From NCBI GenBank assembly GCA_018896835.1, contig JAHILS010000078.1, positions 1-37,328 on the forward strand: 37,328 nt of DNA, given 5' to 3'. Below, in pieces: positions 1 to 36,561 of this stretch; positions within the stretch are counted from its first letter, which is position 1; every line of letters begins with the position of its first letter. Origin of the DNA: Patescibacteria group bacterium (lineage in GTDB: Bacteria; Patescibacteriota; Patescibacteriia; UBA9934). Under the pieces are notes generated by a model that saw only the letters and a program-made list of their open reading frames with translations, was not told the DNA's origin and searched no databases. The translations under genes and the position numbers were made by a program.

Positions 1-285
1 GGTTTGAATGTAATCGATTCGCTTAATCTTGGAAACAAGCTCTGAGATGCGGTCACTGTGGGCTTTGGTAAAGTACGAACCAACGCGTTTTTTTAGTGAA
101 GTTGCTTTGCCAACGTAAAGAATCTTGTCTTGCGCATCAAAATACAAGTAAACCCCAGGCGCGTCAGGGAGATTTTTCCTAACACCATCTCGAGAAGATT
201 TCTCAGCCGTCTGACGGCCTCGAAATGGATTGGATGAATCAGATAAATCTGCACGACGTCTGATTTTGATGTGAGATGGAATCAT
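1..285 (-). CDS. uvrC: Excinuclease ABC subunit C, N-terminal GIY-YIG part only; the rest of the gene lies beyond the window start
   Basis: Reverse-strand ATG at 285..283, 4 nt after the uvrA stop. My translation [10 protein letters not shown]...[32 protein letters not shown] shows the GIY...YVG nuclease motif typical of UvrC N-termini. The frame stays open to position 1. Confidence 0.8.
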
Positions 286-289
286 AATT

Positions 290-2917
290 CTAGTCTTGGT
301 CCCGATCAAGAACCTTGCTTAAATACTTACCAGTATAACTAATTTTTTTACGAGCGATGTCCTCTGGTGTGCCTTCGGCTACAATTTGACCACCTCTGTC
401 TCCGCCTTCTGGGCCAAGGTCAATCACCCAGTCTGCGGTTTTGATAACGTCCAGGTTATGCTCAATCACTACAACGCTGTTTCCGCGGTCAACCAGTCTA
501 TGCAAAACCGCCAATAATTGTTTAACATCTTCAAAATGCAAACCAGTGGTTGGCTCGTCTAAAACGTAAAGCGTTCTACCGGTCTGGCGTCGGGCTAACT
601 CAGCAGCTAGTTTCACTCGCTGAGCCTCACCTCCAGAAAGTGTGTTAGCTGACTGACCGATTTTTAAATATCCAAGACCAACTTCGTCGAGCATTTTAAG
701 TTTTTCATACACGACTGGAATGTCTTTAAAAAACTTCTGACCTTCCTCAACAGTCATATCCAAAACCTCCCACACATTTTTACTGTTCCATTGCACCTCA
801 AGCGTTTCTCGATTAAACCGCCTACCTTTACACACATCACAATTTACATACACAGTTGGTAAAAAGTGCATTTCAATACCAATCTCTCCCAAGCCTTCAC
901 AGTTTTCGCACCTGCCACCGTGTGCCCCCTTCACATTAAAACTAAATCTGCCAGGCTTATACCCTCGAAAACGCGCTTCCTCGGTTGCCGAAAATAAATC
1001 TCGAATCGGACCCCAAGCACCAGTGTATGTGGCTGGGTTAGAGCGTGATGTTCGACCAATCGCTGACTGATCAATCATGACCATCTTGTCGATATACTCA
1101 ACGCCAAGCAGTTGTTTGTGTTTACCAGGCATGGACTTACTCTTATAAAGACGCTTGGAAATCGACTTATAAAGAACGTCGTGAATAAGAGTTGATTTTC
1201 CAGAACCGGAAACGCCAGTTACACAAACAAAGCGTCGAAGCGGGATCTCTACTGTTAAATCTTTAAGATTATTTTCTTGCGCGCTAATAATCTTGATTCT
1301 ATCAGGCCCTACTTTTCTTCTTTTTTTGGGAATGGCGACTTTACAATCACCTCGCAAGTAAGATGCTGTGATTGATTTTTTATCATTAAAAATTTCTGGT
1401 ACTGTGCCGTTGGCAACAACTTCCCCACCGTGAACACCAGCGCCCGGACCGATCTCGACCATCACGTCACTATTCCTAATAGTTTCCTCATCGTGTTCCA
1501 CCACAATCACAGTGTTGCCAATGTCTCGAAGATTTTTCAAGGTGGCTATGAGCTGATCGTTATCTCGCTGATGCAGTCCAATAGTTGGCTCATCAAGCAC
1601 ATAAAGTGCGCCCACAAGCCTAGACCCAATTTGCGATGCTAGACGAATACGTTGAGCCTCGCCACCCGAAAGTGAACCTGCTCGACGATTAAGCGTTAAA
1701 TAGTGCAAGCCAACGTCAAGCATAAAAGTTAATCTTTGCTCTATCTCTTTGAGTATTCCGCCAGCAATCTCACGTTGACGATCTGAAAGCTCAAGATTAA
1801 GAATAAACTCGGCTGTATTGTCCACTGACATAGCAGTCACTTGGGCAATATTTTTTCCACCCACCAAAACGTGCAAGGCTTCCTTACGCAAACGATCTCC
1901 GTGACAAACCGAACAAATATCTTCAGAAAATAGCTCTGTGGTTCCCAGCCCATCACAAGCCTGACAGGCGCCATACGGACTATTAAAAGAAAAAAGTCTG
2001 GGCTCGATTTCAGGGAATGAAAATCCGCACTCTGCGCAAGAAAATTGGGTTGAATATAATTGCTCGTTATTTTTTTCATAAGCGATCTTCACCAAGTTTC
2101 CACCGCGATCAACCGCAATCTCAACCGCTTCTGTTAGCCGTTGCCTTTGATCCTTGGTGATGTCGTTAACATTAAGCACCACAGTATCCACCACAACCTC
2201 AATCTCGTGTTGTTTATAGCGCGAGAGCGTGATCTTCTCACTCAATTTGTGCATTTTTCCATTAATACGCACGCTGGCAAAGCCAGCGTTATAAAGATCA
2301 TACAAAAGTTGGTAATATTCACCTTTTCTACCACGAACAATAGGGGCCATGATTGTGAGCTGACCCCCTCCACCCTTCGCCCCGCCCCTGACGAGGCTTC
2401 GGAGTGGCAGGCCAACTCCCCCTTTGAAAGGGGGAGAGATCGAGTCTTGTCCCCTCCTTTTAAAGGAGGGGTTAGGGGTGGTGGTCATGTTTTGCAAAAC
2501 ATGATCAACTATTTCATCGATTGTCATGCGCGAGATCGACTTATTGCAAGCCGGGCATTGCGCTGTACCAATACGCGCAAATAACACGCGCAAATAATCG
2601 TAAATTTCAGTAACTGTGGCAACTGTTGAGCGCGGGTTACGTGAATGTGCTTTTTGATCAATCGAAATAGCTGGCGACAACCCCTCGATTTCGTCTACGT
2701 CTGGCTTTTGCATTTGACCTAAAAATTGTCTGGCATAAGCAGACAGTGATTCGACATATCGGCGTTGACCTTCAGCAAAAATTGTATCAAATGCCAAAGA
2801 CGACTTTCCCGAACCAGAAAGTCCAGTAATGCAAATTAGTTTATTGCGGGGAATCTCCAGACTAATATTCTTAAGATTATGCTCCCGCGCCCCTTTGATT
2901 GTTATTTTATCTTGCAT
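290..2917 (-). CDS. uvrA: Excinuclease ABC subunit A
   Basis: 875-aa ORF with two ABC modules: Walker [10 protein letters not shown] and GVSGSGKST, signatures LSGGEAQRI and LSGGEAQRV. CxxC zinc modules are present and the protein is colinear with UvrA throughout. Confidence 0.97.
2363..2485. repeat. In-frame GC-rich palindromic insertion (41 codons) inside uvrA
   Basis: Codons 145-185 ([41 protein letters not shown]) sit where E. coli UvrA, recalled from memory, has only a short SQPEGK linker before the conserved LLAPI strand. The DNA contains two perfect 21-nt palindromes: CTCCCCCTTTGAAAGGGGGAG (2416-2436) and CCCCTCCTTTTAAAGGAGGGG (2451-2471). The opposite strand also reads SPPFKGG. Confidence 0.7.
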
Positions 2918-4928
2918 ACTTTTTTTCTAGCTCTTTTTCTAATTCTTTAATTTCATCTCGTAAAAGCCCGGCTGTTTCAAATAATAGATTCTCAGCAGCC
3001 TTTTTCATCTCCTTCTTTTTTTGTAAAATCACTTTTTTAATTTCGTGTGGCTGTGCTGTCATTTCTATTTGGAGTATGGACTTGATGTCAGCATCGCTTG
3101 GCGCCCCAGCAATCATGGCCCGAATGTCTTGAATTTCCTTGTGAATTGTTTTTGGAGTTATGCCATGTTCTTTGTTGTAAGCAATTTGAATTTTCCGCCG
3201 GCGATCAGTTTCACGAATAGCTCTTTTAATTGATCCAGTCATTACGTCAGCGTACAAAATCACCTCGCCATCGATATTGCGGGCAGCCCGACCAATAGTT
3301 TGGACAAGCGATGTTTCTGATCGCAAAAATCCTTCTTTGTCAGCGTCCAAAATGGCAACGAGCGACACTTCGGGAAGGTCCAGGCCTTCTCGCAAAAGGT
3401 TTACTCCAATCACAACATCATAAGTTCCGCGTCGCAGTTCTGTTAAAATCTCAATTCTATCCAAGGTTTCCACGTCGCTATGCAGATATTGCACTTTCAC
3501 TCCCCGCTCAAGCAAAAACTCTGTTAAATCCTCGGCCATCTTTTTTGTTAAAGTGGTAACCAGCGATCGCTCGCCCTTTTTTACCCTGTCCTCTATTCGC
3601 AAAATAAGATCATCAACCTGACCCAAGCTTTTTTTGTCTTTTGGTGTTACCGGACAAATGGTGACCTTGGGATCAATCAAACCAGTTGGACGCACAATTT
3701 GCTCAATAATATCGTCTGAAACCTCGCGCTCAAAATCACCAGGCGTGGCCGAAACATAAATAGTTTGCCCAGAACGATCTTCAAATTCTTCAAACGTAAG
3801 TGGACGATTGTCTTTAGCAGACGGCAAACGAAACCCGTGCTCAACTAACGTTTCCTTGCGGGCTTTGTCTCCGTGGGACATACCCCGGATTTGAGGAATA
3901 GTGACATGCGACTCGTCAATAACAATCAAAAAATCCTTGGGAAAATAATCCACAAGGGTTTGGGGTGAAGAACCAGGCGCCCGGCCTTCAAATTGGGCTG
4001 AATAATTCTCTATACCGCTACAATAGCCAACGTTTTTAATCATTTGCAAATCATAATTTGTGCGTTGTTTTAGTCGCTCATATTCAAGAACCTTGCCATT
4101 TTTCTCCAACTCAGCCAATCGATCTTTAAGTTCATTTTCTATATTAGCTATAGCTTGATTGATTGTGTCCTTTTCTACAACATAATGTCTGGCTGGAAAA
4201 ATCCAAGCGTCAAGTACAGTATTTTGGATTCGGCGGGTGATTGGGTCAAGTAAAAATATCTCAGTAATCACTTCACCTTCAAATATAATTCGGAACAAAA
4301 ACGAAGTGTCCGAAGCGCTCATCAGCTCCAAAACGTCGCCGTGGACGCGGAATTTGCCACGCTCAACGTCCGCGTTTGTCCGCTCATATTGCATAGAAAT
4401 AAGCTCGCGCATAAGCCCACTGCGATCAACCCTGTCACCAACTCGCAAATGCTTTACTTCATTTTTGTACTGCTGTGCTGACCCAAGGTTATAAATGCAA
4501 GAAACTGATGCCACAATAATCACGTCTTTGCGGGAAAGTAATGCTTGGGTAGCAGCATGGCGCAACCGATCAATTTCATCATTGATCTGCGACTCCTTCT
4601 CAATGTAAGTATCAGTGCGAGGCATATATGCCTCTGGCTGATAATAGTCATAATATGAAACAAAATACTCAACCTTATTTTTGGGAAAAAACTGACGGAA
4701 CTCATTGCAAAGCTGGGCAGCTAAGGTTTTGTTGTGAGCAATAACCAAAGTTGGACGCTGAACCTGCTCGATCACGTTGGCAATCGTAAAAGTCTTCCCA
4801 GACCCTGTCACGCCAAGCAAGGTTTGCTTTGGCAAACCCTTTTGTAAATTGTCCACCAACCTCTCAATCGCCTCCGGCTGATCGCCAGTTGGTTTATAGT
4901 TTGAACGCAATTTGAAATTCATATGCAA
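2907..4928 (-). CDS. uvrB: Excinuclease ABC subunit B
   Basis: 673-aa ORF with Walker A GVTGSGKT, a DESH box (VIDESHVT), helicase motifs and a C-terminal UVR-type coiled coil ([15 protein letters not shown]). The real start may be the ATG at 4922 (MNFKL). Its stop overlaps the uvrA start by 11 nt. Confidence 0.97.
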
Positions 4929-5007
4929 AATTACCAGATTCCATGTTTACCAGGGGGTCACTGCTTTTGCTTGTGACCTTGGAGACTTGGGATCTGGTTG
5001 TGAACTC

Positions 5008-5036
5008 ATGCTATTTGAAAAACGCAAAATTGTCAA
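5008..5036 (-). promoter_or_regulatory. Putative sigma70-type promoter for uvrB
   Basis: Minus strand reads TTGACA (5036..5031), a 17-nt spacer, then TAGCAT (5013..5008). This is about 75 nt upstream of the uvrB start. The leader contains hairpin GGTCAC/GTGACC (4956-4978). Confidence 0.4.
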
Positions 5037-5105
5037 TCAAACGGCTAATGTTTGCTAAAGAAGGAGAATAAAAGGGGTTAATTTAGCCTCCACCTTACTC
5101 ACTTC

Positions 5106-5219
5106 GATCCTCCGGTCTTTTTTTCCATCCTCTGGCTTGACCAGAGGATCCAGTGTCACATCTCCTCGAGCATACCTGGCGAGGCCGGAGATCCCCGATT
5201 AAATCGGGGATGGAAAAAA
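5106..5219. repeat. GC-rich nested-palindrome element in an AT-rich intergenic region
   Basis: Hairpin ATCCTCTGG-cttga-CCAGAGGAT (5127-5149). Perfect 21-nt palindrome ATCCCCGATTAAATCGGGGAT (5191-5211). Outer pairings GATCCTCCGG (5106-5115) with CCGGAGATC (5185-5193), and TTTTTTCCATCC (5119-5130) with GGATGGAAAAAA (5208-5219). Confidence 0.6.
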
Positions 5220-5276
5220 CGAATCCTAAATTATTCATTGAAGAGGACATGATATAATCATATTAAAAATATAATC

Positions 5277-5486
5277 ATGCCTACATTATCAATACGACTT
5301 CCAGCTAATCTCGAAACTTTTGTGGAAACGATGGTAAAAAATGGGATTGCTCCAAATAAAGCAGAGGTTGTCCGCCAGGCACTTATTAGTTATGCGGAAA
5401 AACAAGCAATAGCGTCAGTATTACAAGCTGAACAAGAGATAAGGGATGGTGATGTTCTTAGCGGTGATATTAAAAAATTATTTTAA
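5277..5486 (+). CDS. Ribbon-helix-helix (CopG/ParD-like) small DNA-binding protein, antitoxin-like
   Basis: 69-aa ORF. The N-terminal pattern MPTLSIRLPANLETFVETMVKNGIAPNKAEVVRQALISY matches the beta-strand plus two-helix RHH layout. TATAAT boxes lie just upstream (5253-5258 and 5268-5273). No toxin ORF is adjacent. Confidence 0.55.
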   Translation: MPTLSIRLPANLETFVETMVKNGIAPNKAEVVRQALISYAEKQAIASVLQAEQEIRDGDVLSGDIKKLF

Positions 5487-5521
5487 AAAACGGGTCAAGC
5501 CAGGGAACGACAGAGCAAGTC

Positions 5522-15927: not shown

Positions 15928-15987
15928 GGGGTCAGGGCTCTAACTTTGAATTTTTTATGAATTATTCAAAGTTAGAGCCCTGACCCC
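15928..15987 (-). terminator. Very long perfect hairpin (24-bp stem), terminator-like on the minus strand
   Basis: GGGGTCAGGGCTCTAACTTTGAAT (15928-15951) pairs perfectly with ATTCAAAGTTAGAGCCCTGACCCC (15964-15987). On the minus strand the stem is followed by GGTTTTATTTG. Confidence 0.6.
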
Positions 15988-15996
15988 AAAATATAT

Positions 15997-16145
15997 TTGT
16001 TCTGTAAGAACTGCAGGGAAAAGACTTGAAGAAACCAGGCCAATGCTTGCGAACATGAAGAGAGAGATCCTTGCAAGAAGCAAGGTGTTCGGACGTTGAT
16101 CTGGGATATTTAGCTTATCCCCGCAGTTTTTACAGAACAGATTAC
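15997..16145 (-). ncRNA. Candidate structured sRNA (rod-like; 6S RNA is one possibility) between recA and rpoB
   Basis: It has its own promoter (16152-16180) and its own terminator (15928-15987). A closing helix of about 20 bp pairs 16119-16140 with 15997-16018. Internal hairpin CCTTGC-ttctt-GCAAGG and CGAACA/TGTTCG pairing flank large internal loops. There is no credible ORF. Confidence 0.35.
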
Positions 16146-26134: not shown

Positions 26135-26170
26135 TGGCTCACTTTGGGCCGATCGGACCAAAGTGAGCCA
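26135..26170. repeat. 36-nt CGATCG-core palindrome, family 1, copy 1
   Basis: TGGCTCACTTTGG-G-CCGATCGG-A-CCAAAGTGAGCCA has 13-bp arms and one G/A mismatch. It is identical to 26732-26767 and ends 18 nt before the ATG at 26189. Confidence 0.9.
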
Positions 26171-26188: not shown

Positions 26189-26710
26189 ATGAAATCAAAA
26201 TTTCTTAAATCAAACTCACAAACAACTCGTCTTCTAATTCGTATAGGAGATGGGTTGGAGAATATTTGTTTCACACTTGAGAACTCTCGTCTAGTTATGT
26301 CAGTAGGTATAGATGATGCAAGGACTATATTATGGCGTCGCGAACAGACAAGGATAAGAAGAACGATGCGCCAACTGAAGGAAAAAAAACTAATTAAGGT
26401 CAAAAAAGTAGGAAATAAGTACAATGTACTGCTGACAGATGAAGGCATGATCGAATACCTCCATCACAAACTTATTGATTGTAATGAGTTTGAAGACGAC
26501 CAAGTCACCATGGTGATATTTGATATACCAGAGACTCAAAGACAGGTACGAAAACAATTACGTAGGTTTCTTGAAGAAGCATGTTTTATGCCGATTCAAA
26601 AAAGTGTTTGGATTTCAAAATTTGATTCAGGAGAAATATTGTCAAATTTTTTTCAATTAAAAGGTAGACAGAAATGGATCCGGGTATTTAAAGCTAAAAG
26701 ATTATCTTAA
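26189..26710 (+). CDS. Winged-helix plus Cas2/PaaX-C-like ferredoxin-fold protein (PaaX-like regulator family suspected)
   Basis: 173 aa. The N-terminal half contains a recognition helix and wing (IRRTMRQLKEKKLIKVKKVGNKYNVLLTDEG). The C-terminal half, VTMVIFDIPETQRQVRKQLRRFLEEACFMPIQKSVWIS...WIRVFKA, follows the b1-a1-b2 pattern of Cas2 and the PaaX middle domain. It is AT-rich like the backbone. Confidence 0.55.
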   Translation: MKSKFLKSNSQTTRLLIRIGDGLENICFTLENSRLVMSVGIDDARTILWRREQTRIRRTMRQLKEKKLIKVKKVGNKYNVLLTDEGMIEYLHHKLIDCNEFEDDQVTMVIFDIPETQRQVRKQLRRFLEEACFMPIQKSVWISKFDSGEILSNFFQLKGRQKWIRVFKAKRLS

Positions 26711-26731: not shown

Positions 26732-26767
26732 TGGCTCACTTTGGGCCGATCGGACCAAAGTGAGCCA
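26732..26767. repeat. 36-nt CGATCG-core palindrome, family 1, copy 2
   Basis: Identical 36-mer lying between the stop of the 26189-26710 ORF and the stop of convergent ychF. Confidence 0.9.
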
Positions 26768-32496: not shown

Positions 32497-35400
32497 TTAC
32501 TCAATTGATTCAGTGACTTGTTCTGGGGCTACTTCAACAGTTGGCTCAACAACATCTTCTTCAACAACAGCATCTTCAACAACGGCATCTTCAACAACGG
32601 CATCTTCAACAGCTTCTTCTTCAACAACATCTTCTTCTATAACTTCCTCCTGATCAATCTCAACTCCATCACCAACAACTATTTCATCTACAACCTCATC
32701 AACGTCGGTAATATCTTGACTCCTATCCTCTGTAATCACTTGATCAACCGGCTCATTAAAGATTTCAACAATATCCTCATCGACAATCTCAACATTTTGA
32801 TCAACGACGTTCTCCTCAATATTTTCTTCTTCCACCGCTATATTATCTTTTTCTACTTCAACATCTGGAGCGTAATCCTTATGATACGCAATTACCAGCC
32901 AATCAACATTTACACCATTAGTTTCAAGAGTATCCTTGATTATAAAGCCTTCCGAGTCTCTATTGATCGCATAAAGTGAACCAGATGGCGCATCGGCTGT
33001 CAAAAATACGCGGTAAGTAGAAAGATTATCAATTATTTTTTCAAAATTAGGGTCAATGTCCGCAAAAATTACATGCGCTCGACCATTCTGAAGCTTGATA
33101 GTACCGGAAAGCTCAATAGTTGTTTGTGGTGATACAACCGCATAAGCTTCTATTCGCTCTCCGCCATACGACTTAATATTTTGTACAAATCTGCCACCAG
33201 TCTTGATTGTCCCGTCCTCAGAAATTGACCAAACGTTACCAATCCCCGCGATCGATCCAACCGAAAGCAAACTTCCTCCACTCAAATTCACAATGCCAGA
33301 AAGATCAAGTGTGCTTGATGAGGCGACCTGAGTGATCGAATTATCAGAAAGGTCAGCACTTTGTCCATCAAAGTATGAAGGACGGACAAAAACAGAAATA
33401 GATCCGACTGTTCCCGAGAATGCTTCCATGGCATAACCAACAATTGGGCCAGACTCTGTCGCCTTCATGGCATAGCCTGGTTTGGATGAGGTTGTTAGCG
33501 GATCTCCAATTGAAATCGACCCGTTCTCATTACTGACATAGGTTGGAACTCGACCAGAAAGCGCAATTGGTACATGACCGTCAATATTATTTCCTGCTAA
33601 AAATCCGGGTTGAGTGGAAACAATGCCGGCAATTTTTGCGTCATAAGTAGTACCAGTTGATCGTTTTACCGAATCCTTACTGCTTGCAAACACCACAACT
33701 TCACCTGGCGCCACTGGCTCTGCGACTGGGAACATTTCGGCAAAGTCATATGAGCCCGATCCCCAACCAGACGCGTTAGTACGCATAAAATCTCCGCCAA
33801 GTCCGGAGGAACCATCGTAATAAATATATTTATCAGTCTGCAAAACTCCACGATCTGATGGATACAAACGACCCGAAATTGCCATGTCGCCGTCTTGATT
33901 TATAAATCCAACCTCTGTCTCACCCGTGTTTCTAAATGATAATTGATAGTTTGACGCGTCTGTCACACTATTTACAAACCCCATGGAAATATCCTGAGCT
34001 GATGCTCCGTCCCAGCCTGATCCGCGAAGCATTAGTCCATAGGAATTGAGTCCTGGCATAACCGCGTCAGCTGTACCTGTTGAGTCTAGTACCAAGTCTG
34101 TTCCGACCGATGTCATACTACCGTCTTGCGCTAAAACATTTATAGCCTGCCACTTTGGCTGAACATAGACATTAATTCTGCCAGTACCTGACAAGTGTGA
34201 CTCTAAAGCGCGACCAATCACATAACCAACTCCATTTGCCTTCATTACAACGCCCGGAGTTGAAGAAAGTGTCAGATAATCACCTGCCGTAATTGCGCCA
34301 CCTTCATCATTTACATTAATTGGAACCTGACCCAAAAGTGCTACCGGAACATACGCACCAGTCTCGCGCCAGCCTTCAAACCAATTTCCAATCACATTTG
34401 GAGATATAGAATATGCACCAATTATTTTGTCGGCATTGGAGGCTATAGTTGCGTTTCCTAATGAATCAATTCCTATTACATCACCATCTGAAAAATCCGC
34501 CATAACACCAGGAAATAACTCTGCATAATCACTTCCAGGAGACACAAGCGCAACGCCGCCACCAGTTCCTTCGATTGCACCTAATGGATCGCCACTGCCA
34601 TCTTTTAGCAATAAATAATTACATGCATCTGTAGGGTTTGAATCTAAGCAAGCCTGTATACTTATACCCATGTTTGTGTAAGCATTTCCGTCATTAAAGA
34701 AGCTAGCGATGTAATCGGTTGTGCCGAATGCAGAAACATACATAGCTTGCTGATCACCGACTTGATTTACATACAGGGAGTACCCCGTACCAGAGTTCGT
34801 TGTGTACAGGGTGTTACCGGTAGATGCACCGTCTCCCATACTCAAGCTAACAAGTCCTGTGCTTGCATTAATAAAATCGGTCGCGCTGTTATCACGAGAA
34901 ACATACACAGCACTTCCGGTTGTAAGAGTATCATTCACTATTGCTGTGATAAACCCGCCAGTCTGTCCGGTGCCATCAACTTCCAGTTGATCGTATACAT
35001 ACAAATCCCCTGATCCGGTTGAATAATTGGCGGTCGACGGCGTTGAACTATTTTCAACATGAACAGCCGATCCGAAAAAATATCCAGCATAATTATTTGT
35101 GCCACCCGACGCTGTGCCTCGCACTCCGTAACGATTAATACCGGCACTTTTGCTAGAAAAATCACCACCGTAGCCTGTTGTTATTGTGCCAGCACCGCTA
35201 CTGACCTCACCTTGAACACCAAAAGCGCTCGAAATCGTTCCGCCTGATGACAGGACTTTGCCATAAACACCAACAACAGTCGGTATGGTTGATCCTACCC
35301 CGCTATTATATGCCTCAGAATATAGGCCATACATCGTGTTTTCTATTGGAGATACAGCTGTTGATGAATTAATTGCGCGGATCTCCATCCCCTTCATTAT

Positions 35401-36561
35401 ATTAATAGCCCCGGTGCCTGAGTTGATTGTAGCCGATCCGATTCCAGTTACTGCCTGATCATATCCCATACTTTCCACAGAAGAATTAGTCGTCTGGCTA
35501 AACAAGCCATAATAACCATATGTTCCAGCCCCACCAGACGCTGGCGTTCCCAAACCTGACACAGTCTTCATGCCATACGCGTCAGAGGGCGATGAACCAA
35601 AAGATCCATTTAATGAATGCTCAAAATATCCATCAGCAAATCCCCAACTATCGCTACTATATGTTAGCGTGCCAGTTCCGGCTGTTGCATCCTTAAATGT
35701 AAGAGTAGGATTTATGGAACCACTACCAAAATATACATAGCCAGTACTTGGTGCCACACCAAAAGTTGAGGCATTCGCTACCGTTCCGCCAATAGCAACG
35801 TCATCAGTTGATGTTGTTGCGTAGACCGTTGATCCACCGTCGGTCCAACCGATATCATTTAAATATGCAACTGTGCCTGATGCGTTTTGGAAAGTGATTG
35901 TTTTGTCAGAAAGTGTAGGGTCGGTTATAGCAAAAATTGTTTCATAATCATCGGCTGTTGCTCCTTCAAAAACAAGTGGTAATGCGCCAGAAAATGTCGA
36001 GCCAGTAAAATCGTTAGCTCCGGTGATCGTATTGTTTGACCCAAGACCAAAGAAACTGGTTGAATCAAGGCCGTCGAGCATGTCAGCATTCATGGCATAA
36101 GGGCTTGCAACAAGACGCTTTCGTGGAGTAAGAGTCTCACCGTCAATGGTCACCTGTAAGTAGACCGAGGCATCGTCAAAAATTGTTGTTGGGATCGCGG
36201 CAAACGAATCGCTTATGTCACCTAAATTCTGTGTAAATAATCCGTCCGTCAAAGTGACTGTTTTTGCAGTTGCGGTTGAACAGTCTGACGCAGAGTTTGA
36301 CCAAAGACAGGTTCCAGCAGCTAGTGCGTCATAAAACTCAAACACAATATCGATTGTTGCGTCGGAAATCGGAACGCCGTTTGCATTCAAAATACGTCCT
36401 TGATAGGAAATCATGCGCGGAGGGGTATCGGCCGCAAAAACATTTGCATTATAAAATGTTGAGCTGGAAAAAATAATAAATAAAACCATCAAAACCTCAA
36501 TGGCTTTTTTCCATTTATTTGTAATTATTTTTAGCTTCTTCATACTACCGCGTCCACGCAC
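32497..36561 (-). CDS. Giant tail-fibre-like surface protein with two Peptidase_G2/intramolecular-chaperone-like modules and an acidic repeat tail
   Basis: 1354 aa with an N-terminal anchor/signal (AIEVLMVLFIIFSSSTFYNANVFA). A tail-fibre-type N-domain follows (MISYQGRILNANGVPISD, VASPYAMNADMLDGLDSTSF), then a Gly/Ser/Thr-rich beta region. Two modules begin GSDYAELFP and GSYDFAEMFP. The track start is GTG at 36561; an ATG at 36543 is an alternative. Confidence 0.8.
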   Translation of the reverse strand: MRGRGSMKKLKIITNKWKKAIEVLMVLFIIFSSSTFYNANVFAADTPPRMISYQGRILNANGVPISDATIDIVFEFYDALAAGTCLWSNSASDCSTATAKTVTLTDGLFTQNLGDISDSFAAIPTTIFDDASVYLQVTIDGETLTPRKRLVASPYAMNADMLDGLDSTSFFGLGSNNTITGANDFTGSTFSGALPLVFEGATADDYETIFAITDPTLSDKTITFQNASGTVAYLNDIGWTDGGSTVYATTSTDDVAIGGTVANASTFGVAPSTGYVYFGSGSINPTLTFKDATAGTGTLTYSSDSWGFADGYFEHSLNGSFGSSPSDAYGMKTVSGLGTPASGGAGTYGYYGLFSQTTNSSVESMGYDQAVTGIGSATINSGTGAINIMKGMEIRAINSSTAVSPIENTMYGLYSEAYNSGVGSTIPTVVGVYGKVLSSGGTISSAFGVQGEVSSGAGTITTGYGGDFSSKSAGINRYGVRGTASGGTNNYAGYFFGSAVHVENSSTPSTANYSTGSGDLYVYDQLEVDGTGQTGGFITAIVNDTLTTGSAVYVSRDNSATDFINASTGLVSLSMGDGASTGNTLYTTNSGTGYSLYVNQVGDQQAMYVSAFGTTDYIASFFNDGNAYTNMGISIQACLDSNPTDACNYLLLKDGSGDPLGAIEGTGGGVALVSPGSDYAELFPGVMADFSDGDVIGIDSLGNATIASNADKIIGAYSISPNVIGNWFEGWRETGAYVPVALLGQVPINVNDEGGAITAGDYLTLSSTPGVVMKANGVGYVIGRALESHLSGTGRINVYVQPKWQAINVLAQDGSMTSVGTDLVLDSTGTADAVMPGLNSYGLMLRGSGWDGASAQDISMGFVNSVTDASNYQLSFRNTGETEVGFINQDGDMAISGRLYPSDRGVLQTDKYIYYDGSSGLGGDFMRTNASGWGSGSYDFAEMFPVAEPVAPGEVVVFASSKDSVKRSTGTTYDAKIAGIVSTQPGFLAGNNIDGHVPIALSGRVPTYVSNENGSISIGDPLTTSSKPGYAMKATESGPIVGYAMEAFSGTVGSISVFVRPSYFDGQSADLSDNSITQVASSSTLDLSGIVNLSGGSLLSVGSIAGIGNVWSISEDGTIKTGGRFVQNIKSYGGERIEAYAVVSPQTTIELSGTIKLQNGRAHVIFADIDPNFEKIIDNLSTYRVFLTADAPSGSLYAINRDSEGFIIKDTLETNGVNVDWLVIAYHKDYAPDVEVEKDNIAVEEENIEENVVDQNVEIVDEDIVEIFNEPVDQVITEDRSQDITDVDEVVDEIVVGDGVEIDQEEVIEEDVVEEEAVEDAVVEDAVVEDAVVEEDVVEPTVEVAPEQVTESIE
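32556..32615. repeat. 15-bp tandem repeat (about 4 units) encoding an acidic DAVVE repeat
   Basis: CATCTTCAACAACGG occurs at 32571-32585 and 32586-32600, with partial units on either side. On the minus strand it translates as AVEDAVVEDAVVEDAVVEED. Confidence 0.85.

What the first reader, a model, noticed from the sequence alone, without database searches (positions are those of the whole stretch)
2363..2485. GC-rich palindromic element inserted in frame inside uvrA (RPE-like behaviour)
Seen: uvrA reads straight through 123 bp (41 codons) that are visibly more GC-rich than the flanks. The segment contains two perfect 21-nt palindromes at 2416-2436 and 2451-2471. The encoded stretch [41 protein letters not shown] is low-complexity and Gly/Pro-rich. 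Because of the palindromes, the antisense frame also encodes SPPFKGG.

Established: in E. coli UvrA, as I recall it, this position is a short surface linker (LSQPEGKRLMLLAPII) before the UvrB-binding domain. Rickettsia palindromic elements are the classic case of selfish palindromic repeats inserted in frame in essential genes.

Inference: a similar mobile palindromic element has colonised uvrA here and is tolerated as a loop.
Basis: partly seen in the sequence, partly recalled or inferred. Interest (0 to 1): 0.7.

Follow-up and report, generated by a model that had tools for sequence, protein, structure and literature searches.

The report
Triplex-type hairpin repeats inside uvrA
A DNA-repair gene (uvrA) of a tiny groundwater bacterium carries, in frame, a pair of GC-rich hairpin repeats of a kind known from E. 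coli and cyanobacteria (BoxC / intrastrand-triplex motifs), and the cell seems to tolerate them as a floppy surface loop; such repeats were thought to sit between genes, but in this bacterial group they often sit inside genes.

Summary
uvrA (290-2917, minus strand) reads through 123 bp (2363-2485) of 62.6% GC, against 43.9% for the rest of the gene. The segment holds two perfect 21-nt palindromes.

It is a derived insertion. The sister lineage (94% aa identity) and most Uhrbacteria orthologues lack it. Three independent assemblies carry it unchanged.

It is not related to Rickettsia RPEs in sequence. Each palindrome is two thirds of a known three-block unit: pyrimidine arm, purine arm, then a mirror copy of the purine arm. 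This is the BoxC/PIT/TM intrastrand-triplex motif of Hoyne 2000 and Holder 2015.

The insert is a heterodimer with the third blocks on the outside, plus a nested hairpin. The same dimer architecture recurs across phyla.

The encoded 38-44 residues are predicted to be disordered. They lie in a length-variable loop inside the UvrB-binding domain.

Relatives carry such motifs at the same linker in other orientations and frames, and also in uvrC. In Patescibacteria loci, 43% of these hairpins lie in long open frames, against 15% in other phyla.

How the repeats spread is unknown. No second copy was seen in the 37 kb window.

Verdict: a new variant of a known kind, of moderate interest.

The parts
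290..2917 (-). uvrA coding sequence (875 aa). It overlaps the end of uvrB (2907-4928) and is followed by the start of uvrC (from 284 downwards).
   Evidence: ORF list and translation. Best homologues are Patescibacteria / Candidatus Uhrbacteria UvrA. PDB UvrA matches with E = 0. uvrB assigned by Pfam.
2363..2485 (-). In-frame insert, 41 codons, 62.6% GC. It is a composite of two intrastrand-triplex-type units in inverted orientation plus one nested hairpin.
   Evidence: Net +99 bp compared with the sister lineage L001. Query residues 143-186 have no counterpart in 2r6f. pLDDT is below 50 for residues 147-184.
2451..2471 (+). Unit 1 hairpin: pyrimidine arm 2451-2460 (CCCCTCCTTT), centre 2461, purine arm 2462-2471 (AAAGGAGGGG).
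   Evidence: Perfect palindrome. The same stem variant is seen in L024, L026, L067, L089 and L101.
2472..2482 (+). Unit 1 second loop (TTA, 2472-2474) and third block (GGGGTGGT, 2475-2482). The third block is the mirror of the purine arm with A replaced by T, which gives 8 consecutive G.G-C / T.A-T triads if it folds back.
   Evidence: Direct reading. It fits the mirror rule found in 165 of 221 hairpins, where loop 2 is 3 nt in 129 cases, and it fits the class II purine motif of Holder 2015.
2437..2450 (.). 14-nt spacer between the two units of the dimer.
   Evidence: Dimers with the third blocks on the outside and 8-39 nt spacers make up 22 of 41 adjacent hairpin pairs in other genomes.
2416..2436 (-). 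Unit 2 hairpin. On the minus strand it reads CTCCCCCTTT-C-AAAGGGGGAG.
   Evidence: Perfect palindrome. This stem is the one used for the genome scan, which returned at least 120 stretches in many phyla.
2371..2415 (-). 45-nt second loop of unit 2. It folds on its own into a third, imperfect hairpin, with G.U pairs on the mRNA-sense strand.
   Evidence: Folds. About 12 other units in other genomes have a self-complementary hairpin nested at this same position. No other copy of its 19-nt core was found in a meaningful context.
2363..2370 (-). Unit 2 third block. It reads GAGGGGGT on the minus strand, the mirror of AAGGGGGAG, which gives 8 canonical triads.
   Evidence: GAGGGGGT is the consensus third block in 106 oriented flanks. 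Together with 2475-2484 it forms the imperfect terminal inverted repeat of the whole insert (pair I1).

Best explanation
The 123 bp is an in-frame insertion of a dimer of small G/C-rich repeats. These repeats are of the kind described as BoxC, PIT elements or triplex motifs (TM).

Each unit has three blocks on one strand: a C-rich pyrimidine arm, its Watson-Crick purine arm, and, after a short loop, a G-rich mirror copy of the purine arm. That third block could fold back as the third strand of a purine-motif (G.G-C, A/T.A-T) triple helix in single-stranded DNA.

The two units here have different stems (CCCCTCC and CTCCCCC). They face each other with the third blocks on the outside, which is the commonest dimer form of the family. 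One unit carries a nested hairpin in its second loop.

The composite landed in a loop of the UvrB-binding domain of UvrA that varies in length among orthologues. It survives because it is a multiple of three, has no stop codon in the frame used, and is translated into a disordered Pro/Gly-rich loop. It is most likely neutral or slightly costly for UvrA, not a functional module.

Shown: the anatomy, the family membership, the derived state, and the predicted disorder.

Inferred: arrival by copy-and-insert from another copy through an unknown, probably single-strand-DNA-based route; repeated independent arrival at this linker in related lineages; tolerance at the protein level.
For: Anatomy:
- Searches give the blocks and the triad pairing.

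Family:
- A scan for the hairpin alone returned at least 120 stretches from many phyla. Almost all carry the third block on one side.
- Among 81 hairpins with asymmetric arms that were not selected by the search pattern, 58 have a perfect mirror copy about 3 nt downstream. Only 13 have a perfect direct copy.
- Over all 221 hairpins, 165 obey the mirror rule. Opposite an A of the purine arm, the third block has A or T in 422 of 490 cases.
- This is the class II purine motif of Holder et al. 2015 (PMC4666352). That paper showed triplex formation in vitro for the E. coli member.

Dimer form:
- 22 of 41 adjacent pairs have the third blocks on the outside. L089 has the same two stem variants in the same order as the window.
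- Nested hairpins in loop 2 occur in about 12 other units.

Derived state:
- The sister lineage lacks the insert: L001 and L170-172, about 85% nt and 94% aa identity.
- The linker between CxxC and AP..RGRKG is usually 34-39 aa, but 66 aa here.

Real sequence:
- Three assemblies are identical over the insert.

Recurrence at this site:
- L002 and L003 have a single unit at the same linker, read in two different frames.
- L127 has one in the opposite orientation.

Copying within a genome:
- The uvrA and uvrC copies in L003 are identical over 41 nt, including the loop and spacer.

Protein level:
- Residues 147-184 have pLDDT below 50 and no secondary structure.
- The insert replaces 6 residues of a helix-to-strand loop in 2r6f.

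Generality:
- In-frame copies lie inside Pfam domains of Mur ligase, XerC/D, CysRS, peptidase U32, PheT, DinB and glycosyltransferases.
Against: - No other copy of either hairpin occurs in the 37 kb window, or in 22.5 kb of the sister genome. A multi-copy state in this genome is therefore not shown.
- The exact composite and its peptide were not found anywhere else. The nested hairpin has no detectable relatives.
- There are no target-site duplications and no transposase in the window. Holder 2015 also found no link to mobile elements, so 'insertion by copying' lacks a mechanism.
- An ancestral insertion followed by loss in the sister lineage and local remodelling cannot be excluded.
- Triplex formation was not detected in double-stranded DNA or in vivo for the E. 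coli member.
- Unit 2 has a 45-nt second loop, outside the 1-6 nt used to define such motifs.
- Tolerance by UvrA is predicted, not measured.
Confidence: 0.75

Rival explanations
1. A true miniature transposon, as the first reader proposed by analogy with RPEs and MITEs. On this view the 123 bp is one non-autonomous element with terminal inverted repeats, moved as a unit by a transposase encoded elsewhere in the genome.
For: - The ends of the insert form an imperfect inverted repeat (20 nt, 75% complementary; pair I1).
- The dimer architecture resembles REPINs (PMC3116915).
- The site shows presence/absence between lineages.
- Two copies within L003 are identical.
- In-frame REPs are known in uvrA, uvrB and other repair genes of other phyla (Di Nocera 2013).
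Against: - No second copy of the 123 bp was found anywhere.
- There is no target-site duplication.
- No transposase or RAYT gene is present in the window.
- The tag next to the hairpin is mostly TTA/CTA(G), not GTAG or CGTC.
- Units occur singly more often than as dimers.
- Holder 2015 found no association with mobile elements.
Confidence: 0.1
2. The insert was generated in situ. Hairpins and G/C runs would have arisen locally in a length-tolerant linker through replication slippage, template switching or gene conversion, and converged on a stable structure, with nothing imported.
For: - The linker is hypervariable in length and sequence among orthologues.
- TM loci are reported to be locally unstable.
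- No other copy lies nearby.
Against: - The two units match family members from unrelated phyla block for block, including the loop-2 TTA and the third block.
- A mirror repeat cannot be produced by any copying of the local template.
- Relatives have different stem variants, orientations and frames at the same site. That pattern fits repeated arrival better than local drift.
Confidence: 0.08
3. The insert is functional. It could act at the DNA level as a structure-prone site that raises the rate of deletion or frameshift in uvrA, giving a reversible mutator switch. It could act at the mRNA level as a hairpin pause. Or it could act at the protein level as a flexible loop that tunes UvrA-UvrB binding.
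For: - It sits in the UvrB-binding domain.
- TM repeats stall polymerases in vitro and mark unstable loci.
- uvrA, uvrC and the uvrB-uvrA spacer are hit repeatedly in Uhrbacteria.
- Repair genes are frequent hosts of in-frame REPs in other phyla.
- The insert is unchanged in three assemblies.
Against: - The three assemblies differ by only 0.3-0.9% overall, so an unchanged insert carries no information about selection.
- The widely sampled sister lineage, found on at least 68 contig blocks, does without the insert.
- Units inside genes show no strand bias: 8 against 7 in Patescibacteria, 10 against 6 elsewhere.
- The peptide is predicted to be disordered and of low complexity.
Confidence: 0.07

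Closest known systems
BoxC / PIT elements / TM (TMECO) intrastrand triplex motifs (Bachellier 1990s; Hoyne et al. 2000, from memory; Holder et al. 2015, PMC4666352)
   Same: - Same three-block design on one strand: C-rich arm, 3-6 nt loop, complementary G-rich arm, 3-nt loop, second G-rich block obeying G.G-C and A/T.A-T triad rules.
- Same stem length, about 9 nt.
- Same tendency to occur as inverted ('palindromic') pairs.
- Same broad taxonomic spread, including Cyanobacteria and Gammaproteobacteria.
- Same lack of any known mobilising enzyme.
   Different: - The stems here are CCCCTCC and CTCCCCC, not the CCCTCNCCC of E. coli.
- One unit has a 45-nt second loop holding a nested hairpin.
- The host is a Patescibacterium.
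- The E. coli elements are reported as always intergenic. This copy, and 43% of those seen in Patescibacteria loci, lie inside coding frames.
Rickettsia palindromic elements (RPE; Ogata et al. 2000, from memory; mentioned)
   Same: The behaviour is the same: palindromic repeats inserted in frame in essential genes and translated as extra surface peptide.
   Different: - RPEs are 100-150 bp elements specific to Rickettsia, with their own consensus sequences.
- No sequence relation was tested or is expected.
- There is no three-block triplex design.
- The present insert is a composite of units of about 35 nt.
GTAG- and CGTC-tagged REPs inside genes (Di Nocera et al. 2013, PMC3733652)
   Same: - Short hairpin repeats, often as dimers, lie in frame in DNA repair genes.
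- Hosts include uvrA (Opitutus terrae, Thioalkalivibrio) and uvrB (R. conorii).
- The inserts encode 20-80 extra residues.
   Different: - Those REPs are defined by a GTAG or CGTC tag at the hairpin foot, and the GTAG group is associated with RAYT transposases.
- Here the flank is a 3-nt loop (TTA/CTA/TTG) followed by a mirror G-block.
REPINs (Bertels and Rainey 2011, PMC3116915)
   Same: The likely unit of spread is an inverted pair of short hairpin repeats separated by a short spacer.
   Different: - REPINs pair two near-identical REPs and are linked to a RAYT gene.
- Here the two units usually have different stems, and no RAYT is known.

Membership tests
Class II purine-motif intrastrand triplex motif (BoxC/PIT/TM) | A pyrimidine arm and a purine arm that are Watson-Crick complementary, 6-15 nt long, with a first loop of 1-6 nt | tested here: met
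   Both hairpins have perfect 10-nt arms and one central base, or equivalently 9-nt arms and a 3-nt loop.
Class II purine-motif intrastrand triplex motif (BoxC/PIT/TM) | A third block 3' of the purine arm, antiparallel to it, giving G.G-C and A.A-T or T.A-T triads (a mirror repeat) | tested here: met
   Unit 1: GGGGTGGT over GGGGAGGA, 8 triads. Unit 2: GAGGGGGT over GAGGGGGA, 8 triads. The rule holds family-wide.
Class II purine-motif intrastrand triplex motif (BoxC/PIT/TM) | A short second loop (1-6 nt; 3 nt in TMECO) | tested here: inconclusive
   Unit 1 has TTA, so the feature is met. Unit 2 has 45 nt, so it is not met as defined. However, that loop folds on itself, and about 12 other family members show the same nested hairpin.
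Class II purine-motif intrastrand triplex motif (BoxC/PIT/TM) | The exact TMECO consensus CCCTCNCCC N3-6 GGGNGAGGG N3 GGGNGAGGG | tested here: not met
   The stems are CCCCTCC and CTCCCCC. This is the same kind of element but a different sequence sub-family.
Class II purine-motif intrastrand triplex motif (BoxC/PIT/TM) | Actual triple-helix formation by the single strand | not testable with these tools
   It was shown by CD and NMR only for the E. coli member, and was not seen in duplex DNA or in vivo.
Class II purine-motif intrastrand triplex motif (BoxC/PIT/TM) | Many dispersed copies per genome | tested here: inconclusive
   Only this composite occurs in 37 kb, and the rest of the genome is not available. 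Relatives have 2-4 units per 6-15 kb.
Rickettsia palindromic elements (RPE) | Sequence match to an RPE consensus; occurrence in Rickettsia | not tested
   No RPE sequences were available here. The host is Candidatus Uhrbacteria, and the units match another described kind.
Rickettsia palindromic elements (RPE) | In-frame insertion in conserved genes, translated as an added surface segment | tested here: met
   for the window; for other genes. This is behaviour only, not membership.
GTAG/CGTC-tagged REPs and REPINs | A conserved GTAG or CGTC tetranucleotide at the foot of the hairpin | tested here: not met
   The spacers next to the hairpin are TTA (23), CTA (8), GTTAG (5), TTG (4) and others. 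GTAG is rare.
GTAG/CGTC-tagged REPs and REPINs | An associated RAYT (Y1 transposase) gene flanked by the repeats | tested here: inconclusive
   None was found among the window ORFs scanned. Other genomes were not screened.
MITE | Terminal inverted repeats plus a target-site duplication | tested here: not met
   An imperfect terminal inverted repeat is present. No duplication was seen at the borders when compared with L001, L002 and L003.

The most novel reading that the evidence does not exclude
In Patescibacteria, BoxC/PIT-type triplex repeats are not confined to spacers. They routinely colonise housekeeping proteins in frame, much as RPEs do in Rickettsia. The uvrA linker, the uvrC N-terminus and the uvrB-uvrA spacer are repeated landing sites.

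The mirror rule co-varies over at least eight stem variants and many phyla, with A or T but rarely G or C opposite A. That would be comparative evidence that the triple-helical fold, and not only the hairpin, is selected in living cells. Experiments on the E. coli element could not show this.
Probability: 0.35. Interest if true: 0.65.

Novelty: new variant of a known kind. Interest (0 to 1): 0.45.

Why it matters
- It links two literatures that have been separate: intrastrand-triplex repeats, thought to be intergenic, and in-frame palindromic inserts in essential genes (RPEs, and REPs in repair genes).
- It gives a concrete cause for some of the odd Pro/Gly-rich insertions that inflate and confuse protein annotation in candidate-phyla genomes. 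Here the public annotation of uvrA starts at Met131.
- The mirror-repeat covariation offers a sequence-only test of whether triplex folding matters in vivo.
- If repair genes really are preferred hosts, the relation between structure-prone DNA and nucleotide excision repair becomes testable.

Tried and rejected
- **Other copies in the window.** I searched for each palindrome with up to 3 mismatches, ran a general repeat search, and ran a generic detector for pyrimidine-arm hairpins. Nothing turned up outside uvrA.
- **Rfam.** There was no hit around the insert at E up to 10 other than noise, and no family anywhere in the window at gathering score. No tRNAs were found.
- **Insert peptide.** The search against 5.8 billion cluster representatives found no candidate. 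That index holds representatives only, and the window's own protein is clustered under an insert-free representative. phmmer against 1.84 billion representatives gave no hit at E <= 0.001.
- **Nested hairpin.** A metagenome scan for its 19-nt core gave 21 hits. All were chance matches, mostly in high-GC DNA with unrelated flanks.
- **Literature.** Searches for the hairpin sequence, for palindromic in-frame repeats in the Candidate Phyla Radiation, and for triplex plus Patescibacteria returned nothing relevant. The Elhai 2008 paper on small dispersed repeats could not be read.
- **Host palindrome CATGTTTTGCAAAACATG at the left border.** I considered it as a fold-back scar and rejected it, because QNM is homologous to QSI and HTI in L002 and L003.
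- **Strand bias of in-gene units.** None was found.
- **Intein or intron.** No motif and no Rfam support, but excision cannot be excluded without expression data.
Full report
**1. What is in the sequence**

uvrA is the minus-strand ORF 290-2917 (875 aa). uvrB lies upstream of it in the direction of transcription (2907-4928; Pfam). The first 94 codons of uvrC follow it (from 284 downwards).

Codons 145-185 occupy exactly 2485..2363. They encode [41 protein letters not shown].

The segment is 62.6% GC. The rest of uvrA is 43.9% GC and the window as a whole 43.4%.

It holds two perfect palindromes with 10-nt arms, at 2416-2436 and 2451-2471. Neither pattern, even with three mismatches, appeared in 100 dinucleotide-preserving shuffles.

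The plus strand also reads SPPFKGG across the second palindrome. The 147-aa antisense ORF 2141-2584 is most likely spurious.

**2. It is real and it is derived**

The closest homologues are UvrA of Patescibacteria, mostly Candidatus Uhrbacteria, typically 836-850 aa long.

The sister lineage has a 13-residue linker instead of the insert. This lineage is P0001/P0121: 94% aa identity over aligned columns and about 85% nt identity. At the DNA level the window has a net +99 bp.

That insert-free allele is listed in 68 blocks of the collection.

Among 94 homologues, the stretch from the first CxxC to AP..RGRKG is usually 34-39 aa and at most 65 aa. In the window it is 66 aa.

Two other assemblies are 99.1% and 99.7% identical to the window. 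They are 100% identical over the insert, so it is not an assembly artefact.

**3. Where it sits in the protein**

Against Geobacillus UvrA (2r6f/3uwx), query residues 2-142 and 187-328 align on both sides of the insert. Residues 143-186 replace six residues between a helix and a strand.

By established knowledge of UvrA, the domain between the two CxxC pairs of zinc module 1 is the UvrB-binding domain. The site is therefore inside that domain, not before it.

An AlphaFold2 model built on 19 sequences has mean pLDDT 75. Residues 147-184 have pLDDT below 50 and no secondary structure, and lie between helix 133-145 and strand 184-193.

Whether the loop touches UvrB was not tested.

**4. What the DNA is**

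Relatives L002 and L003/L004 carry, at the same linker, a single hairpin CTCCCCCTTGGNAAGGGGGAG preceded by GGCAACCCCCTCC.

The same element sits in frame near the start of uvrC in both. A two-hairpin composite fills the uvrB-uvrA spacer of L003/L004.

These came from Patescibacteria (31 loci), Cyanobacteria, Planctomycetota, Poribacteria, Bacteroidota, Chloroflexota and Gammaproteobacteria. The last group included cultured Aeromonas, Photobacterium and Marinomonas.

In nearly all of them the hairpin is flanked on one side, after about 3 nt, by GAGGGGGT(T). On the other strand this reads ACCCCCTC before the hairpin.

**5. The mirror rule**

The loci also contained pyrimidine-arm hairpins that my search pattern had not selected. 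Of 81 such hairpins with asymmetric arms, 58 have a perfect mirror copy of the purine arm just downstream, allowing A to be replaced by T. Only 13 have a perfect direct copy. The mirror copy scores better in 51 cases and the direct copy in 7.

The third block co-varies with the stem:

| Purine arm | Third block |
|---|---|
| GGAGGGG | GGGG(A/T)GG |
| GGGGAGG | GG(A/T)GGGG |
| GGGGAGGG | GGG(A/T)GGGG |
| GGAGAGGGG | GGGGTGAGG |

Further variants follow the same pattern.

Over all 221 hairpins, 165 obey the rule. The second loop is 3 nt in 129 of them. Opposite an A of the purine arm the third block has A (191) or T (231), and rarely G (29) or C (39).

A mirror repeat cannot be made by copying a template. 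It is what a fold-back purine-motif triple helix requires.

**6. This kind is already described**

A literature search led to Holder et al. 2015 (PMC4666352). That paper describes BoxC, re-described as PIT elements by Hoyne et al. 2000, as a class II purine intrastrand triplex motif called TMECO. Its pattern is CCCTCNCCC N3-6 GGGNGAGGG N3 GGGNGAGGG.

The paper reports the following:
- Triplex formation by the single strand, shown by CD and NMR.
- No triplex signal in duplex DNA or by in vivo footprinting.
- 3610 copies in 262 proteobacterial genomes, and high numbers in Cyanobacteria.
- An association with local genome instability.
- Inverted 'palindromic' pairs.
- A strictly intergenic location in E. 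coli.
- No link to mobile elements.

The window's units fit this design.
- Unit 1, plus strand: CCCCTCCTT-TTA-AAGGAGGGG-TTA-GGGGTGGT, giving 8 canonical triads.
- Unit 2, minus strand: CTCCCCCTT-TCA-AAGGGGGAG-(45 nt)-GAGGGGGT, also giving 8 triads.

The stems differ from the E. coli consensus, so this is a different sub-family of the same kind.

**7. The composite**

On the coding strand the order is:
1. third block (C-rich form), then hairpin 1;
2. a 14-nt spacer;
3. hairpin 2, then a 45-nt loop, then the third block.

Among 41 adjacent hairpin pairs in other genomes, 22 have this arrangement with the third blocks on the outside. Only 3 have the reverse arrangement. The two partners usually have different stems. 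L089 has the same two variants in the same order as the window.

The 45-nt loop folds on itself. About 12 other units have a self-complementary hairpin nested at this same position.

The whole insert therefore runs from one third block (2363) to the other (2482).

**8. How it probably got there and why it stays**

The linker is a repeated landing site. L002 and L003 read the same unit in two different frames. L127 has a unit in the opposite orientation. The window has another stem variant plus a second unit.

Changing one stem variant into another would require matched changes in three blocks. Repeated arrival, or replacement from another copy, is therefore more likely than drift in place.

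Within L003 the uvrA and uvrC copies are identical over 41 nt, including the loop and spacer. This points to recent copying.

Against a simple transposon model:
- There is no target-site duplication.
- No transposase or RAYT was found among the window ORFs scanned with Pfam.
- No other unit occurs in 37 kb of this genome or in 22.5 kb of the sister genome.
- The composite was not found elsewhere.

Only copies that are in frame and free of stop codons can persist in an essential gene. In one of the other frames, hairpin 1 would give a TAA stop.

**9. Generality**

In the fetched loci, 23 of 54 hairpins from Patescibacteria lie in stop-free frames that extend at least 60 codons on both sides. 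For other phyla the figure is 21 of 142. The odds ratio is 4.3, with Fisher p = 8e-5. Random positions in the same loci gave 0.55 and 0.60.

Pfam places such copies inside domains of the following proteins:
- Mur ligase
- GT2 and GT4 glycosyltransferases
- a PEP-utilising enzyme
- XerC/D
- CysRS
- peptidase U32
- an O-antigen ligase
- DinB
- PheT

A Saccharibacteria UvrA carries one at a second site.

Units inside genes show no strand bias. This argues against a role in the transcript. According to Holder et al. 2015, purine-motif triplexes do not form in RNA.

Units also occur in 21 stretches of viral contigs.

Caveats: the loci come from a truncated scan, and taxa were assigned from record titles.

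**10. Comparison with known systems**

The insert behaves like RPEs. It also behaves like the in-frame REPs that Di Nocera et al. 2013 reported in uvrA, uvrB and other repair genes. It lacks their defining tags, and no relation to RPE sequences was tested. By structure it belongs with BoxC/PIT/TM.

What appears to be new is the coding, in-frame location of this kind of repeat and its frequency in Patescibacteria. I found no paper describing this.

**11. Verdict**

I rate it a new variant of a known kind, with interest 0.45.

Noticed in passing
window about 181-258 (minus strand), N-terminus of uvrC: uvrC also carries an in-frame insert of about 75 nt (25 aa) compared with the sister lineage L001. 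It has its own palindromes: GCCGTCAGACGGC flanked by CCATTTCGAG / CTCGAGATGG. L002 and L003 have a triplex-type unit at this same position. In L002 the gene caller started uvrC downstream of the element.
   Followed up: partly
window 290-2917; PDB alignment, query residues 328/329: This UvrA, like its Patescibacteria relatives (about 840 aa), lacks the roughly 113-residue insertion domain of class I UvrA. Chain positions 305-417 of 2r6f have no counterpart.
   Followed up: no
window 2527-2917 (first 130 codons of uvrA): The public annotation of this contig, and of GCA_018895575.1, starts UvrA at Met131 (745 aa; P0122, P0127), although the ORF is intact from Met1 (875 aa). In GCA_022012805.1 (L126) uvrA is split into two calls. 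These are probably annotation or assembly problems near the GC-rich insert.
   Followed up: partly
window 26135-26170 and 26732-26767: Two identical, perfect 36-nt palindromes (TGGCTCACTTTGGGCCGATCGGACCAAAGTGAGCCA) bracket a 173-aa ORF (26189-26710) that has a PaaX central Cas2-like domain. One lies 18 nt before its start and the other 21 nt after its stop. They could be operators or terminators, or the ends of a small cassette.
   Followed up: partly
window 15928-15987 and 15995-16142: The spacer between recA and rpoB holds a perfect hairpin with 24-nt arms and a second inverted repeat with 29-nt arms. There is no Rfam match.
   Followed up: no
window 32516-32728, inside ORF 32497-36561 (minus strand): A tandem array with a 15-nt period (about 12 copies, 60-100% identity) lies inside a 1354-aa ORF.
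   Followed up: no
P0081, P0083 and L090 (UvrA of other Patescibacteria): There is a second insertion hot spot in UvrA, after RLRxEaLxV (query residue about 350). P0081 carries there a segment encoding SLRGGRRPTKQSSKEIASVASLPRND, which I recall from memory resembles the translation of another palindromic repeat family. L090 carries triplex-type units at that site.
   Followed up: no
L149-L169 (IMG/VR viral contigs): The same three-block units occur in 21 stretches of viral contigs, most with the third block intact. Viruses could therefore carry them between hosts.
   Followed up: partly
L170-L172 6462-7815, compared with window about 4929-5521: The sister lineage has four or five small genes, one with an RNHCP domain, between the hypothetical gene next to ruvC and uvrB. 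The window lacks them, so this is a local gene-content difference beside the uvr operon.
   Followed up: no
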